Below, piece after piece: positions 7,273 to 11,792 of a stretch of DNA of 64,000 nucleotides. Position 1 is the stretch's first letter; every line of letters begins with the position of its first letter. This DNA comes from Escherichia coli (GTDB lineage Bacteria > Pseudomonadota > Gammaproteobacteria > Enterobacterales > Enterobacteriaceae). The stretch lies in assembly GCF_045037415.1 (NCBI RefSeq), contig NZ_CP173438.1, one strand, 5' to 3'. A program made the position numbers and the translations under genes. The notes under the pieces were generated by a model. The model saw only the letters and a list, made by a program, of their open reading frames with translations, had not been told where the DNA came from and did not search any database.

Positions 7273-8031
7273 TTACTTAACTCCATCCGCGCTCATACGA
7301 TCGCGAATATGTTGGGCGCGTTCGGCGGATGCTGGGTGGTCGTCAAACATTGAACTTTGGCGACCTTCTTCCAGTTTAGCCAGTTTTTCAAAGCTGGTGG
7401 CAAGGCCAGCCGGACTGATGCCGCGTTGGCGCAGCAAATCGTAGGAGTAATCATCGGCCTCTGCTTCCTGGCGCTGGGAGAATTGCGAATTGACTAGCTT
7501 TTCGCCCAGGTCTCCTAGTTGTGATTGTGACAAACTGCCGACAATTCCGCCTGCAGAGGCCGCCGCAACGCGAATTGCGTTTGTACCAAGTGCTACCTGC
7601 ATTCCTTTCTTCACATGGCCTAATGCCACGTGCCCCATTTCGTGACCGAGCACCGCTTCGACTTCGTTATCCGTCATCATATCCATCAGCCCGCTATAGA
7701 CGCGGATACAGCCGTTAGCCATTGCAAAGGCGTTCACATCCTTCGCCATATACACTTTGTAATTCACCGGCTGACCATTGATGTTATCGCCTAACGCGCG
7801 AGAAATTGTCGTCAGACGTTTAGCGTATTCGCTATTGGCTGGCGCAATCGTCGCCTTGCTGTCCATATCCTGACATGCCTGATCGCTCAGGGTTTTCACC
7901 TGCGCATCACTCAAACTGTAAGCCTGAAAAGCTTCCGCTCCTGATGAGAGCAGTCCACTGGAGTCCATATTCTGGCAACCAGTCAGTACCGTTGCCACGC
8001 TCATTGCTACCAATAAGGCGCGAATTTTCAT
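7273..8031 (-). CDS. loiP: Outer-membrane metalloprotease LoiP (M48 family lipoprotein)
   Basis: Start at MKIRALLVAMSVATVLTGC (lipobox); HEMGH zinc motif; 252 aa. The ORF track extends spuriously upstream to 8250. Confidence 0.92.
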   Translation of the reverse strand: MKIRALLVAMSVATVLTGCQNMDSSGLLSSGAEAFQAYSLSDAQVKTLSDQACQDMDSKATIAPANSEYAKRLTTISRALGDNINGQPVNYKVYMAKDVNAFAMANGCIRVYSGLMDMMTDNEVEAVLGHEMGHVALGHVKKGMQVALGTNAIRVAAASAGGIVGSLSQSQLGDLGEKLVNSQFSQRQEAEADDYSYDLLRQRGISPAGLATSFEKLAKLEEGRQSSMFDDHPASAERAQHIRDRMSADGVK

Positions 8032-8308
8032 GTTTTCTCTTCCGCACAAGGTCAGGATTATTCTAAAAATGCGCCATCTGCAGGTGAATTGACGCTCAAT
8101 CGAAGTATAAGGAAAAGTGCAGTGGACCGGCGAGTAGATTGCGCAACATGCGAGCATGATCCAGAGATTTCTGAAGCGGCAAAAGGATGTTCCATGTACA
8201 TGACGCGCGGCTTGCGGTAAATTGTTGGCAAATTTTCCGGCGTAGCCCAAAACGCGCTGTCGTCAAGTCGTTAAGGGCGTGCCCTTCATCATCCGATCTG
8301 GAGTCAAA

Positions 8309-10300
8309 ATGTCCTCACGTAAAGAGCTTGCCAATGCTATTCGTGCGCTGAGCATGGACGCAGTACAGAAAGCCAAATCCGGTCACCCGGGTGCCCCTAT
8401 GGGTATGGCTGACATTGCCGAAGTCCTGTGGCGTGATTTCCTGAAACACAACCCGCAGAATCCGTCCTGGGCTGACCGTGACCGCTTCGTGCTGTCCAAC
8501 GGCCACGGCTCCATGCTGATCTACAGCCTGCTGCACCTCACCGGTTACGATCTGCCGATGGAAGAACTGAAAAACTTCCGTCAGCTGCACTCTAAAACTC
8601 CGGGCCACCCGGAAGTGGGTTACACCGCAGGTGTAGAAACCACCACCGGTCCGCTGGGTCAGGGTATTGCCAACGCAGTCGGTATGGCGATTGCAGAAAA
8701 AACGCTGGCGGCGCAGTTTAACCGTCCGGGCCACGACATCGTCGACCACTACACCTACGCCTTCATGGGCGACGGCTGCATGATGGAAGGCATCTCCCAC
8801 GAAGTTTGCTCTCTGGCGGGTACGCTGAAGCTGGGTAAACTGATTGCGTTCTACGATGACAACGGTATTTCTATCGATGGTCACGTTGAAGGCTGGTTTA
8901 CCGACGACACCGCAATGCGTTTCGAAGCTTACGGCTGGCACGTTATTCGCGACATCGACGGTCATGACGCGGCATCCATCAAACGCGCAGTAGAAGAAGC
9001 GCGCGCAGTGACTGACAAACCGTCCCTGCTGATGTGCAAAACCATCATCGGTTTCGGTTCCCCGAACAAAGCCGGTACCCACGACTCCCACGGTGCGCCG
9101 CTGGGCGACGCTGAAATTGCCCTGACCCGCGAACAGCTGGGCTGGAAATACGCGCCGTTCGAAATCCCGTCTGAAATCTATGCTCAGTGGGATGCGAAAG
9201 AAGCAGGCCAGGCGAAAGAGTCCGCATGGAACGAGAAATTCGCTGCTTACGCGAAAGCTTATCCGCAGGAAGCCGCTGAATTTACCCGCCGTATGAAAGG
9301 CGAAATGCCGTCTGACTTCGACGCGAAAGCGAAAGAGTTCATTGCTAAACTGCAGGCTAACCCGGCGAAGATCGCCAGCCGTAAAGCGTCTCAGAATGCT
9401 ATCGAAGCGTTCGGGCCGCTGTTGCCGGAATTCCTCGGCGGTTCTGCAGACCTGGCGCCGTCTAACCTGACCCTGTGGTCTGGTTCTAAAGCAATCAACG
9501 AAGATGCTGCGGGTAACTACATCCACTACGGTGTACGTGAATTCGGTATGACTGCGATTGCCAACGGTATCTCCCTGCACGGTGGTTTCCTGCCGTACAC
9601 CTCCACCTTCCTGATGTTCGTGGAATACGCACGTAACGCCGTACGTATGGCTGCGCTGATGAAACAGCGTCAGGTGATGGTTTACACCCACGACTCCATC
9701 GGTCTGGGCGAAGATGGCCCGACTCACCAGCCGGTAGAGCAGGTCGCTTCTCTGCGCGTGACCCCGAACATGTCTACATGGCGTCCGTGTGACCAGGTTG
9801 AATCCGCGGTAGCGTGGAAATACGGCGTTGAACGTCAGGACGGCCCGACTGCGCTTATCCTCTCCCGTCAGAACCTGGCGCAGCAGGAACGTACTGAAGA
9901 GCAGCTGGCAAACATCGCGCGCGGTGGTTATGTGCTGAAAGACTGTGCTGGTCAGCCGGAACTGATCTTCATCGCGACCGGTTCTGAAGTTGAACTGGCT
10001 GTAGCGGCATACGAAAAATTGACTGCCGAAGGCGTGAAAGCGCGCGTGGTTTCCATGCCGTCTACCGACGCATTCGACAAGCAGGACGCGGCTTACCGTG
10101 AATCCGTACTGCCGAAAGCGGTTACCGCTCGTGTTGCGGTGGAAGCTGGCATTGCTGACTACTGGTACAAGTATGTTGGCCTGAACGGTGCTATCGTCGG
10201 CATGACCACCTTCGGTGAATCTGCTCCGGCAGAGCAGCTGTTTGAAGAGTTCGGCTTCACCGTTGACAACGTTGTTGCGAAAGCAAAAGCGCTGCTGTAA
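8309..10300 (+). CDS. tktA: Transketolase 1
   Basis: 663 aa from [41 protein letters not shown]; thiamine-diphosphate enzyme. Confidence 0.96.
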
Positions 10301-10363
10301 TCGGTAAGATGCTTTGTGAGAAGGGCCGCAAATGCGGCCCTTCAGATTGTTGGCAAAGTGCGC

Positions 10364-10457
10364 GTTGTTTATGCCGGATGCGGCGTGAACGCCTTATCCG
10401 TCCTACAAGATTTTGCAAATTCAACATATTGCAGCCTGATAAGCGTAGCGCATCAGG
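10364..10457. repeat. REP palindromic units in the tktA 3' flank
   Basis: gccggatgcggcgtgaacgccttatccgtcctac and gcctgataagcgtagcgcatcaggc palindromes. Confidence 0.8.
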
Positions 10458-10483
10458 CAGTTTTGTCTTTGCTATCAGTCTCA

Positions 10484-10508
10484 AGGGCCGCGAAAGCGGC
10501 CTTTTTTT
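10484..10508 (+). terminator. Rho-independent terminator (tktA side), overlapping the stop codon of the SPFH gene
   Basis: ggccgcgaaagcggcc hairpin followed by ttttttt. Confidence 0.6.
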
Positions 10509-11415
10509 ACTTAGTAGAGATAAACGGAACTGTGCTGCCGGGGATCATGGTATCGGGCAGTTTACCGTCCCAACGCTCAGCAGTGGTGAGGGCAACAAGT
10601 CCGGGATTCTCCCGCAGAGCTTCACCGCGCAGGCGGATAGCTTCTGCTTCAGCCGCACTTTTTAAACGAATAGTTTCAGCCTCTGCCGCGCCTCTTACGC
10701 GAATGGTCTCAGCTTCTGCTTTGGCTGCCGCCAGTTTACTGTCTGCTTCTGCCTGGGCCTGAGTTACTGCTATTTGCGCTTGGATTTTCTCTGTTTCCAG
10801 ATTTTGCTTACGTGTGGCAATGGCGACTTCTGCTTTCATTCGGTCTTCAATCGACTTTTCATAAGCGTCAGAAAAATCAATATTTTCAATCTGGACACCA
10901 TCAATCACCACCGGGCCAACAACGGCTTTACGCATTGCATTTTGCAGATCCTGAACCAGTTTTGTACGATCCTGTACCGCGCTGATGGCGGTATATTGGC
11001 CGAAAACGTTCTCCAGTTGAGTTGGCAACTGACGGACAATCAGACGATCTTTTAATGCTTCAATGGTGTTGTAGGTGGTATAAACCGCGCCTGCTTCTGA
11101 AGGTTTAATGTGGAAGCTGACTGATACCGTCATTTGTGCCGGTTGCTGGTCGCGGCTGTAGGCCTGTAATCCCTGATAGACCACAGCCTGATTACGCGTG
11201 GAAATTTTCTCTACACTTTCCATAAAAGGGATCTTAAAACCCAGCCCCGGCTCGGCAACTTTTACGATTTTTCCGTAGCGCAGCAAAATGCCGCGTTCAC
11301 CTTCATTAACGGTGTAATACGAGAGAAATGGCAGCACAACCACGGCAAGCACGCCAATGGCGATAGCAATAGATTTTTGTGGGCGAAATGAGGTTATTGA
11401 AACAGGTGCTTTCAT
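10507..11415 (-). CDS. SPFH/band-7 (prohibitin/HflC-like) membrane protein, 302 aa
   Basis: N-terminal TM segment (SIAIAIGVLAVVVLPFLSYYTV), band-7 core, C-terminal Ala/Glu-rich repeats (AEAETIRVRGAAEAETIRLKSAAEAEAIRLRGEA). Confidence 0.75.
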   Translation of the reverse strand: MKAPVSITSFRPQKSIAIAIGVLAVVVLPFLSYYTVNEGERGILLRYGKIVKVAEPGLGFKIPFMESVEKISTRNQAVVYQGLQAYSRDQQPAQMTVSVSFHIKPSEAGAVYTTYNTIEALKDRLIVRQLPTQLENVFGQYTAISAVQDRTKLVQDLQNAMRKAVVGPVVIDGVQIENIDFSDAYEKSIEDRMKAEVAIATRKQNLETEKIQAQIAVTQAQAEADSKLAAAKAEAETIRVRGAAEAETIRLKSAAEAEAIRLRGEALRENPGLVALTTAERWDGKLPDTMIPGSTVPFISTK

Positions 11416-11792
11416 ATGAATCTTCCTTGAGTAAAGTATGGGAATATGTCACATGGGGGGAGGAGAAAACAGCTGGCAGGTGAGAATTCAGAATCTATAA
11501 AGGGGTATAGCGAAAAAACATTGCATTAGAAAAGTATGCTTTCGGACATTCAATAAATAAATAGAGATATGCATCACAAATACAATAACAAACAAAATAT
11601 TTATTTTGTGATAAACATAACAAATACAAAATTGACTTTAAAAATATCAATTTCATGTTGTTGTTATTTAAAGTTTTATTATTTTTACTCATGAGGTTTT
11701 TCTTCTCGCGTGCCCAATTGCTTTCATTAAACTGCACGAGTATTTTATTTTTACCGCCGGACGGTACCCTAAAAATAAAATAAGGATAATTT
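11416..11792. promoter_or_regulatory. AT-rich divergent promoter region between the SPFH gene and cmtB
   Basis: About 330 bp of very AT-rich sequence with short direct repeats (acaaatacaaaattgac); no credible ORF. Confidence 0.3.

What the first reader, a model, noticed from the sequence alone, without database searches (positions are those of the whole stretch)
10630..10790. Tandem 11-residue Ala/Glu-rich repeats in the C-terminal tail of the SPFH protein
The tail reads AEAETIRVRGA / AEAETIRLKSA / AEAEAIRLRGE, encoded by near-identical 33-bp tandem units. Such repeats form coiled coils in flotillin-like proteins, and the repeated DNA could expand or contract by slippage, giving length variation between strains.
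Basis: seen in the sequence. Interest (0 to 1): 0.3.

Follow-up and report, generated by a model that had tools for sequence, protein, structure and literature searches.

The report
Extra helix unit in prohibitin-like protein
The three 11-residue Ala/Glu repeats are real, but they are old, diverged copies in the long wall helix of a prohibitin-type membrane-cage protein; Escherichia has one more unit than its relatives, and the number does not vary among E. coli strains.

Summary
The peptides AEAETIRVRGA / AEAETIRLKSA / AEAEAIRLRGE are present in tandem (aa 233-265 of a 302-aa Band_7/SPFH "prohibitin family" protein, window 10507-11415, minus strand; units at 10621-10719). The 11-residue self-similarity is far above chance.

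The DNA units are only 58-76% identical, and Tandem Repeats Finder sees no 33-bp array. The units also sit in the 87-residue CC1 helix (aa 183-269), just before the conserved NPG bend that aligns with prohibitin-2, not in the C-terminal tail.

The helix shows no heptad signal. Its hydropathy pattern fits two opposite apolar seams, as expected in the side-by-side helical walls of SPFH cages.

Copy number is fixed in E. coli: no unit deletion in any of 1829 genomes. Across species the helix length changes in exact 11-residue steps. Most relatives have two units. Escherichia, Yersinia and some Rhizobiales each gained one independently. In a broad sample, 121 of 146 proteins fall on a 79/90/101/112 ladder. 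One E. albertii lineage lost 22 residues between 9-bp direct repeats.

This is an ordinary feature of a known family, with a modest new detail: the helix length is quantised.

The parts
10507..11415 (-). Gene for a 302-aa stand-alone SPFH / prohibitin-family membrane protein
   Evidence: ORF. Pfam Band_7 E 5.6e-32. RefSeq name 'prohibitin family protein' in 1830 E. coli genomes. Foldseek top hits are HflC, erlin, PHB1/2 and QmcA, E 3e-17 to 5e-12.
11320..11382 (-). N-terminal transmembrane helix (aa 12-32)
   Evidence: AlphaFold2 helix 12-32 with a hydrophobic sequence IAIAIGVLAVVVLPFL. It aligns to the TM segment of HflC/HflK.
10870..11319 (-). SPFH1/SPFH2 globular part (aa 33-182)
   Evidence: Beta/alpha elements E33-E181 in the model. 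The Pfam Band_7 match covers aa 35-210.
10609..10869 (-). CC1 wall helix, one continuous 87-residue helix (aa 183-269), equal to 8 hendecads counted from NIDFS
   Evidence: AF2 helix H183-269, pLDDT 95 falling to 64. Hendecad-wrapped comparison. Two-seam hydropathy period 2.23.
10720..10752 (-). Degenerate unit -1, AEADSKLAAAK (aa 222-232)
   Evidence: 17/33 nt identical to the next unit. Together with unit 0, it is the block deleted in the E. albertii 280-aa variant.
10687..10719 (-). Unit 0, AEAETIRVRGA (aa 233-243). One of the two Escherichia copies of the family's first unit; the aligners place the 33-nt / 11-aa gap at or next to it.
   Evidence: All non-Escherichia Enterobacteriaceae orthologues examined lack 11 residues here.
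10654..10686 (-). Unit 1, AEAETIRLKSA (aa 244-254), the closest match to the AEAETIRLKGA unit of two-unit relatives
10621..10653 (-). Unit 2, AEAEAIRLRGE (aa 255-265), the ancient terminal unit shared with prohibitin-2 ([13 protein letters not shown]) and HflC (GEGDAEAAKLFAD)
   Evidence: Profile alignments to HflC and to the PHB2 chains 6iqe_A and 8rrh_B.
10600..10611 (-). E-N-P-G helix break (aa 269-272), the CC1-to-CC2 bend
   Evidence: AF2 helix break at 270-271. It aligns to PHB2 N245-P246-G247. PHB2 E231 is described as CC1 and Y248 as CC2 in PMC12624060.
10507..10599 (-). CC2-like short helix (aa 273-282), a C-terminal tail with the conserved W-D-G-K-L-P...T-M-I-P-G segment (predicted cap strand), and the stop codon
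   Evidence: AF2 helix H272-279; the tail has low confidence in the monomer model. W282, G284, L286, P287, P292 and P297 are invariant in 53 homologues.
10483..10504 (.). G+C-rich hairpin between the convergent tktA and SPFH genes (likely bidirectional terminator)
   Evidence: Terminator-like site found. It lies 3 nt beyond the SPFH stop codon.

Best explanation
The three units are protein-level structural modules, not an active DNA repeat. They form the membrane-distal end of the long CC1 helix of a stand-alone, prohibitin-type SPFH protein. By homology, many copies of such a protein stand side by side to form the wall of a membrane-anchored cage. Each unit is 11 residues, about three helical turns or about 16 A. 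On an 11/3 helical net the unit gives two apolar or small seams (L8-A1-A5 and I6-G10-A3) that would face the two neighbouring helices. It also gives two charged faces (E2/R9 and E4/R7/E11) that would point into and out of the cage. Adding or removing exactly 11 residues turns everything downstream by only about 14-20 degrees. That keeps both seams, the NPG bend, CC2 and the cap strand in register, so whole-unit length changes are the ones that survive. The family's ground state is two clear units. An in-frame 33-bp duplication in the Escherichia ancestor made three, and the copies have since diverged, so the number is now fixed. Shown here: the repeat, its position in the helix, its homology to the CC1/CC2 junction of PHB2 and HflC, the fixed number in E. 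coli, and the quantised length differences among species. Inferred: cage formation by this protein, the seam and face assignment, and any effect on cage height or subunit number.
For: The repeat is present and statistically significant. The protein belongs to the SPFH family by sequence and fold. The model has one helix 183-269 that breaks at N270-P271. A profile of the C-terminal half aligns AEAEAIRLRGEALRENPGL with PHB2 [21 protein letters not shown] and with HflC GEGDAEAAKLFADAFSKDPDF. PMC12624060 places PHB2 E231 in CC1 and Y248 in CC2. Hydropathy shows no power at periods 3.5, 3.6 or 3.67. Its dominant period is 2.23, reached by 0 of 300 shuffles and found at 2.22-2.24 in all 50 relatives tested. 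This is the alias expected for two stripes on a helix of about 3.62 residues per turn. The flotillin structure paper describes (A/G,E,A/G,E) repeats, no heptads, a right-handed side-by-side barrel, and charged residues both inside and outside. In 80 species the anchor distance is exactly 94 (59 loci) or 105 (21 loci). Parsimony on an NJ tree gives a two-unit ancestor and at least 4 independent +11 gains. Among 146 representatives sharing at most 50% identity, 121 fall on the 79/90/101/112 ladder, which corresponds to 6-9 hendecads. No unit deletion was found in any of 1829 E. coli genomes, and all 130 sampled rows have spans equal to the query.
Against: No oligomer was modelled or solved for this protein, so cage formation and the seam assignment rest on homology and periodicity. 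The best hydropathy period corresponds to about 3.62 residues per turn, not exactly 11/3. The helix is therefore near-straight rather than strictly hendecad. Upstream of the units there is no sequence-level lag-11 similarity (z = 0.4), and the hydrophobic register shifts by one position there. About 17% of diverse relatives lie off the 11-ladder: a second ladder at 83/94/105 (offset +4/-7) and some +1 variants at the bend. Eleven is therefore preferred but not obligatory. A four-unit E. coli allele is not rigorously excluded, because the search output does not report span for all records.
Confidence: 0.75

Rival explanations
1. One reading: a slippage-prone tandem DNA repeat (contingency-type locus) that expands and contracts and gives length variation between strains.
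For: One natural E. albertii lineage, seen in two independent data sets, carries an in-register 66-bp deletion bounded by a perfect 9-bp direct repeat GGCAGAAGC. One metagenome scaffold encodes an Escherichia-like protein that lacks exactly one unit (P0011). Whole-unit gains recur across genera.
Against: The units are only 58-76% identical at the DNA level, with in-register exact runs of 4-8 nt. TRF finds no array. No unit deletion occurs in any of 1829 E. coli genomes, all are at least 95% identical over the probe, and each has one place. The three-unit state is shared by E. coli, E. albertii, E. whittamii and Escherichia sp. MOD1, so it is old and stable. The P0011 scaffold also has other indels, in this gene and in tktA, so it may be an assembly artefact.
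Confidence: 0.05
2. The repeats form a classical heptad-based, intertwined coiled coil that drives dimer or trimer formation.
For: The region is traditionally annotated as 'coiled coil' in SPFH proteins (PMC2636767). It is a long, uninterrupted, Ala/Glu/Arg-rich helix.
Against: Hydropathy power at period 3.5 is 3.2 against a shuffle mean of 10.4, and there is no lag-7 self-similarity (z = 0.8). The cryo-EM papers on homologues describe parallel side-by-side barrels without heptads.
Confidence: 0.1
3. Three units are ancestral, and the two-unit proteins of other Enterobacteriaceae arose by deletion.
For: Deletion between short direct repeats demonstrably happens. Three-unit forms occur in several distant clades.
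Against: Fitch parsimony on the NJ tree gives a two-unit root with 4 changes. Escherichia is nested among two-unit Pseudocitrobacter, Enterobacter, Klebsiella, Kluyvera and Mixta sequences. Two-unit forms are the majority, 81 of 146 diverse representatives. The inserted units differ in sequence and position between clades.
Confidence: 0.08
4. There was no true duplication: the similarity is a by-product of Ala/Glu-rich low-complexity helix composition.
For: The whole helix is compositionally biased. The DNA identity between units is no higher than the shared amino acids would explain.
Against: Composition-preserving shuffles never reach the lag-11 signal (0 of 1000). Orthologues differ by exactly 11 residues at this spot, with unambiguous flanks.
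Confidence: 0.03

Closest known systems
Prohibitin-2 / prohibitin-1 (mitochondrial PHB complex; PDB 8rrh, 9o9z, 9urz, 6iqe)
   Same: N-terminal TM helix, SPFH domain, long CC1, bend, short CC2 and a cap strand. The CC1 end and bend align motif for motif ([21 protein letters not shown] against AEAEAIRLRGEALRENPGL). The whole-protein profile gives E 2.9e-11 to 1.6e-10.
   Different: Bacterial, single gene (a homo-oligomer is presumed, not a PHB1/PHB2 heterodimer), with no protease partner nearby. CC1 is longer, with two or three clear AEAxAIRxxGx units where PHB2 has one recognisable unit.
HflK/HflC of E. coli (PDB 7vhp, 7wi3, 9cz1)
   Same: Best sequence and Foldseek matches (E 2e-13; Foldseek 3e-17). 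Same domain order, and the RGEGDAEA motif lies at the same place in CC1.
   Different: Scores are far below the NCBIfam equivalog cut-offs: 60 bits against 134 for HflC, and 37 against 159 for HflK. It is not in an hflKC operon and is present in only 34% of E. coli genomes.
Flotillin / bacterial FloT-YqiK 'EA repeats'
   Same: A/G-E-A/G-E repeat pattern, absence of heptads, and a helix that forms the wall of a right-handed barrel. Foldseek match to flotillin at E 2e-9.
   Different: The flotillin wall helix is 186 residues, and the protein uses hairpin or lipid anchoring. The FloT model scores 17.8 bits against a cut-off of 700. Here the helix has only 8 hendecads.
p-Prohibitins (SPFH4) of Hinderhofer et al. 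2009 (PMC2636767)
   Same: A prokaryotic prohibitin-like subfamily with a TM helix, an SPFH domain and a predicted coiled coil. That paper already notes that related SPFH proteins differ in length mainly through the coiled-coil region.
   Different: That paper does not describe an 11-residue quantum. Assignment of this protein to SPFH4 was not tested against their alignment.

Membership tests
SPFH / Band 7 superfamily | Sequence match to the Band_7 domain model above the curated threshold | tested here: met
   PF01145: 111.6 bits against a cut-off of 23.6, aa 35-210.
SPFH / Band 7 superfamily | Fold: N-terminal membrane anchor, alpha/beta SPFH domain, long C-terminal helix | tested here: met
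   AF2 model with pLDDT 84. Foldseek probability is 1.00 to HflC, erlin, PHB, QmcA, stomatin, flotillin and vault.
SPFH / Band 7 superfamily | Assembly into a ring- or cage-shaped homo- or hetero-oligomer | not testable with these tools
   Only a monomer could be predicted. Cage formation is inferred from homologues.
Prohibitin family (as RefSeq names it) | CC1-bend-CC2 junction of the type ...GEAL(S/R)xNPG(Y/L)..., followed by a cap strand | tested here: met
   Profile alignment to PHB2 chains 6iqe_A and 8rrh_B across the junction, fragment E 0.03-0.2 and whole-protein profile E 1.6e-10. The fragment E-values are weak when taken alone.
HflK / HflC (FtsH modulators) | Score above the NCBIfam equivalog cut-offs | tested here: not met
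   TIGR01932 60.5 bits against 134.4. TIGR01933 37.4 bits against 159.4.
HflK / HflC (FtsH modulators) | Paired hflK-hflC genes | tested here: not met
   A single gene between tktA and cmtB, with no conserved neighbour in 80 loci.
Flotillin (FloT/YqiK) | Match to the FloT scaffold protein model | tested here: not met
   NF058507 17.8 bits against a cut-off of 700.
Classical heptad coiled coil | 3.5-residue hydrophobic periodicity / lag-7 repeat | tested here: not met
   Power at 3.5 is below the shuffle mean, and lag-7 z = 0.8. No dedicated coiled-coil predictor was available.
Slippage-prone tandem repeat (contingency locus) | Near-identical head-to-tail DNA units | tested here: not met
   19-25 of 33 nt identical, and no TRF array.
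Slippage-prone tandem repeat (contingency locus) | Copy-number polymorphism among strains of one species | tested here: not met
   No deletions in 1829 E. coli genomes. Insertions are not rigorously excluded, but none appears in 130 sampled rows. One deletion variant exists in E. albertii.
Anti-phage defence systems containing SPFH proteins | Match to a PADLOC-DB model | tested here: not met
   No family matched at E up to 0.01.

The most novel reading that the evidence does not exclude
In prokaryotic prohibitin-like proteins the wall helix is built from a whole number of 11-residue modules, 6 to 9 in nature and 8 in E. coli. The module count may act as a ruler for cage size. By the published CC1-length rule (subunits = 0.178 x length + 10.2), each module would add about 16 A of wall and about two subunits. 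The Escherichia protein would then form a cage of about 26 subunits, where its two-unit relatives form about 24 and the E. albertii deletion variant about 22. The natural series (Pseudocitrobacter 2 units, E. coli 3, E. albertii variant minus 2 hendecads, 4-unit proteins such as P0150, P0160 and P0173) would be a ready-made test of that rule.
Probability: 0.3. Interest if true: 0.45.

Novelty: new member of a known kind. Interest (0 to 1): 0.22.

Why it matters
For this window it matters little. The repeat is a normal structural feature of an annotated prohibitin-family gene. It is not a phase-variable or strain-typing locus. One by-product has some value for people who study SPFH cages. Across a large bacterial family, the CC1 wall helix changes length almost only by whole numbers of helical turns, mostly in steps of 11 residues. 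Closely related natural pairs differ by exactly one or two modules. A 2025 structural comparison proposed that CC1 length sets subunit number, and these pairs are simple material for testing that idea.

Tried and rejected
- Tandem Repeats Finder at the lowest score found no 33-bp array.
- PADLOC found no defence-system match.
- A search for a conserved partner gene (NfeD, protease) within 3 kb in 80 loci found only genus-level synteny.
- Single-stripe amphipathic periodicities (3.5, 3.6, 3.67) and a period-11 hydropathy signal were all at or below the shuffle level. I therefore dropped a strict 'hendecad coiled coil' label in favour of a 'two-seam, near-straight helix'.
- Literature searches for 'hendecad' together with SPFH family names returned nothing.
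- I considered a synthetic four-unit query to exclude insertions in E. coli. I did not run it, because the tool joins pieces that reuse the same subject DNA, so normal alleles would also reach full coverage.
- The plus-strand ORF 10316..10762, which overlaps the repeat, was considered and rejected as a gene. It is the antisense shadow of GCN-GAR codons, and similar shadows appear in 17 other loci.

Full report
**1. What is in the sequence**

The finding lies in a minus-strand ORF, window 10507..11415, that encodes 302 aa. The gene sits between tktA (8279..10300, plus strand) and cmtB/cmtA (from 11793, plus strand). Its translation contains exactly the three quoted peptides in tandem:

| Unit | Peptide | aa | Window |
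|---|---|---|---|
| -1 (degenerate) | AEADSKLAAAK | 222-232 | 10752-10720 |
| 0 | AEAETIRVRGA | 233-243 | 10719-10687 |
| 1 | AEAETIRLKSA | 244-254 | 10686-10654 |
| 2 | AEAEAIRLRGE | 255-265 | 10653-10621 |

The protein-level repeat is well beyond chance. BLOSUM62 self-similarity of the helix peaks at lag 11 (z = 5.9) and lag 22 (z = 5.3). None of 1000 composition-preserving shuffles reaches the lag-11 value at any lag.

The DNA description does not hold.
- The three 33-nt units share only 25/33, 20/33 and 19/33 identities.
- In-register exact runs between adjacent units are 4-8 nt.
- Tandem Repeats Finder finds no period-33 array even at its lowest score.
- The repeat finder reports only 17-18-nt AEAE cores, 76-83% identical, at 33-nt spacing.

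**2. What the protein is**

Pfam gives Band_7/SPFH (E 5.6e-32). RefSeq calls it 'prohibitin family protein'.

The closest solved relatives by sequence are HflC, HflK, QmcA, prohibitins and stomatin. NCBIfam scores are far below the HflC, HflK and FloT cut-offs, so it is none of those.

An AlphaFold2 model built on a 53-sequence alignment (mean pLDDT 84) shows these elements:
- a TM helix at aa 12-32;
- the SPFH alpha/beta body to aa 181;
- one uninterrupted helix at aa 183-269;
- a break at N270-P271;
- a short helix at aa 272-279;
- a low-confidence tail.

Foldseek matches the model to HflC, erlin1/2, PHB1/2, QmcA, stomatin, flotillin and the vault protein.

**3. Where the repeat sits**

A profile of the C-terminal half aligns our 'AEAEAIRLRGEALRENPGLVAL' with two homologues:
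- PHB2 '[24 protein letters not shown]';
- HflC 'GEGDAEAAKLFADAFSKDPDF'.

With N270-P271-G272 equal to PHB2 N245-P246-G247, PHB2 E231 corresponds to our E256 and PHB2 Y248 to our L273. The PHB1/2 structure paper places E231 in the CC1 helix and Y248 in the CC2 helix, with a sharp bend of about 55 degrees between them (PMC12624060).

So the repeats are not a 'tail'. They are the cap-proximal third of CC1, the helix that forms the cage wall in all solved SPFH complexes.

**4. Is it a coiled coil?**

Not in the classical sense. Hydropathy power at periods 3.5, 3.6 and 3.67 is below the shuffle mean, and lag-7 self-similarity is absent.

The dominant signal has period 2.23. No shuffle in 300 reaches it over all periods, and all 50 relatives tested give 2.22-2.24. 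That frequency is the alias expected for two opposite stripes on a helix of about 3.62 residues per turn.

Plotting the unit on an 11/3 helical net gives:
- two small or apolar seams, L8-A1-A5 and I6-G10-A3;
- two charged faces, E2/R9 and E4/R7/E11.

This matches what the flotillin cryo-EM paper describes (10.1101/2024.05.09.593390): (A/G,E,A/G,E) repeats, no heptads, helices side by side in a right-handed barrel, and charged residues both inside and outside that glue neighbours together. The seam and face assignment for this protein is my inference; no oligomer was modelled.

**5. Copy number within E. coli**

The gene is present in 1830 of 5426 complete E. coli genomes.

I used a 149-nt probe made of the three units plus 25-nt flanks. 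Loss of one unit would cap coverage at 78%. Instead, all 1829 matching genomes cover at least 80% of the probe, at 95% identity or more, in exactly one place each. All 130 rows sampled across the rankings of three searches show a single piece, and every full-coverage row spans exactly the query length.

Strain-level length variation is therefore not seen. A rare four-unit allele is not strictly excluded.

**6. Copy number among species**

Other Enterobacteriaceae carry two units (AEAETIRLKGA AEAEAIRLRGE), in proteins of 288-291 aa. These include Pseudocitrobacter, Klebsiella, Kluyvera, Kosakonia and Enterobacter; the more distant Mixta, Erwinia and Salmonella relatives also have two units. E. 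coli, Shigella, E. albertii, E. whittamii and Escherichia sp. MOD1 carry three.

In 80 species genomes, the distance between the ENIDF and WxG anchors is exactly 94 (59 loci) or 105 (21 loci), and nothing else. On a neighbour-joining tree built without the repeat, Fitch parsimony gives a two-unit ancestor and at least four independent +11 events:
- Escherichia;
- Yersinia;
- the Brucella/Ochrobactrum/Shinella/Ensifer clade;
- Rhizobium alvei.

None of these lineages has near-identical DNA copies; the maximum is 28/33.

A profile search of 1.84 billion representative proteins gave 146 usable relatives that share no more than 50% identity with one another. Their F-to-W distances are:

| Class | Distances (count) | Total |
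|---|---|---|
| Main 11-ladder | 79 (17), 90 (81), 101 (20), 112 (3) | 121 |
| Second ladder, offset +4/-7 | 83 (8), 94 (2), 105 (4) | 14 |
| +1 variants at the bend | 80 (1), 91 (4), 102 (2) | 7 |
| Odd values | 73, 82, 86, 115 (1 each) | 4 |

Wrapped in elevens from the bend, CC1 has 6, 7, 8 or 9 hendecads, and E. coli has 8. The shortest class lacks the degenerate unit -1 rather than an AEAEAIR unit. One 9-hendecad protein (P0160) shows a 22-residue block duplication. The permitted steps (4, 7 and above all 11) are the lengths closest to whole helical turns. These counts are not phylogenetically independent.

**7. Evidence for slippage-type events**

One E. albertii lineage encodes a 280-aa protein at the same tktA-cmtB locus. 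It appears in NCBI assembly GCA_001514595.1 and, independently, in read set ERR162681. Alignment shows a 66-bp in-register deletion that removes unit -1 and unit 0. Its ends lie in a perfect 9-bp direct repeat, GGCAGAAGC, present in the full-length E. albertii allele. In the E. coli window that repeat has one mismatch.

A metagenome scaffold encodes an Escherichia-like protein lacking exactly one unit. However, it carries other indels in this gene and in tktA, so it may be an artefact.

Five singleton, mostly metagenome-derived sequences have 3-6-residue deletions elsewhere in CC1. Their reality is uncertain, and none is fixed in a species.

**8. Most likely mechanism**

- Shown: a diverged, fixed, protein-level 11-residue module array at the distal end of CC1. 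It is one module longer in Escherichia than in the family's ground state.
- Inferred: because 11 residues are about three turns, whole-module changes keep both lateral seams, the NPG bend, CC2 and the cap strand in phase. Such changes therefore survive selection, and off-phase indels do not.
- Speculative: the published regression of subunit number on CC1 length is y = 0.1782x + 10.22 (PMC12624060). For CC1 of 76, 87 and 65 residues it gives about 24, 26 and 22 subunits. Each module would then add about two subunits and about 16 A of wall.

**9. Context**

- K-12 lacks the gene. Homology to the window stops at the tktA stop codon (10301) and resumes at 11711, with about 230 unrelated bases in between.
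- No partner gene is conserved next to it in 80 loci.
- PADLOC finds no defence-system match.
- A G+C-rich hairpin at 10483-10504 abuts the stop codon.

**10. Novelty and verdict**

The following are already known:
- Ala/Glu repeats in the helical region of SPFH proteins;
- their role in cage walls;
- length differences of that region among relatives.

I found no paper linking SPFH proteins with an 11-residue quantum. That absence covers only the searchable library.

The finding is a real but ordinary structural repeat in a known family. It is supported only as a rare, evolutionary-scale process.

Noticed in passing
window 10302-11710: The SPFH gene is part of a 1.4-kb presence/absence segment. 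K-12 MG1655 has about 230 unrelated bases between the tktA stop codon and the cmtB upstream region instead. The gene is found in 1830 of 5426 complete E. coli genomes, and at the same tktA-cmtB locus in E. albertii.
   Followed up: partly
window 10316-10762 (+ strand): A 148-aa ORF (GTG start) antisense to the repeat (…SASAALFKRIVSASAAPLTRMVSASALAAAS…). It is a shadow of the GCN-GAR codon pattern. Comparable antisense ORFs appear in 17 of 80 related loci, so it is not a gene.
   Followed up: partly
window 10430-10504: A REP-like palindrome (GCCTGATAAGCGTAGCGCATCAGGC) lies between the convergent tktA and SPFH genes. It is followed by a G+C-rich hairpin with a T-run, which could terminate both genes.
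   Followed up: partly
L081:3001-3843 and L082:3001-3843 (E. albertii): A natural 280-aa allele has a 66-bp in-register deletion between 9-bp direct repeats GGCAGAAGC, removing two hendecads of CC1. It is seen in an NCBI assembly and in an independent read set.
   Followed up: yes
P0002, P0003, P0004, P0007, P0008 (E. coli-like proteins, 296-299 aa): These single-member clusters have 3-6-residue in-frame deletions at various places in or next to CC1 (for example loss of IAT, KSIE or VTQA). Four come from ENA assemblies and one (P0004) is an NCBI third-party (TPA) annotation. They could be real rare alleles or assembly or gene-calling artefacts.
   Followed up: no
L074 (Pseudomonas putida plasmid pKF715A); P0057 (Kosakonia plasmid); one plasmid hit in E. 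coli: Members of this family are sometimes plasmid-borne. A Microvirga (Alphaproteobacteria) copy also groups with Stutzerimonas/Pseudomonas sequences on the NJ tree. Together these suggest horizontal transfer of the gene.
   Followed up: no
P0160 (112-class representative): This protein contains a 22-residue block duplication in mid-CC1 (VTAEITVTKAKAAADS… / ARAEITVTQAKAQADA…). Length gains in this helix are therefore not confined to the terminal AEAEAIR units.
   Followed up: no
representatives P0157, P0170, P0190, P0200, P0207, P0212, P0217, P0225 (83-class); P0197, P0252 (94-class); P0146, P0179, P0187, P0238 (105-class): A second length ladder is offset by +4/-7 residues from the main one. 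The offset appears to arise in the N-terminal half of CC1, which suggests that one- or two-turn changes are tolerated there.
   Followed up: no
window 7273-8250 (- strand listing) / loiP region: The mechanical ORF list extends the loiP (Peptidase_M48) reading frame to a TTG start far upstream of the annotated 252-aa protein. This is probably just an ORF-caller artefact.
   Followed up: no
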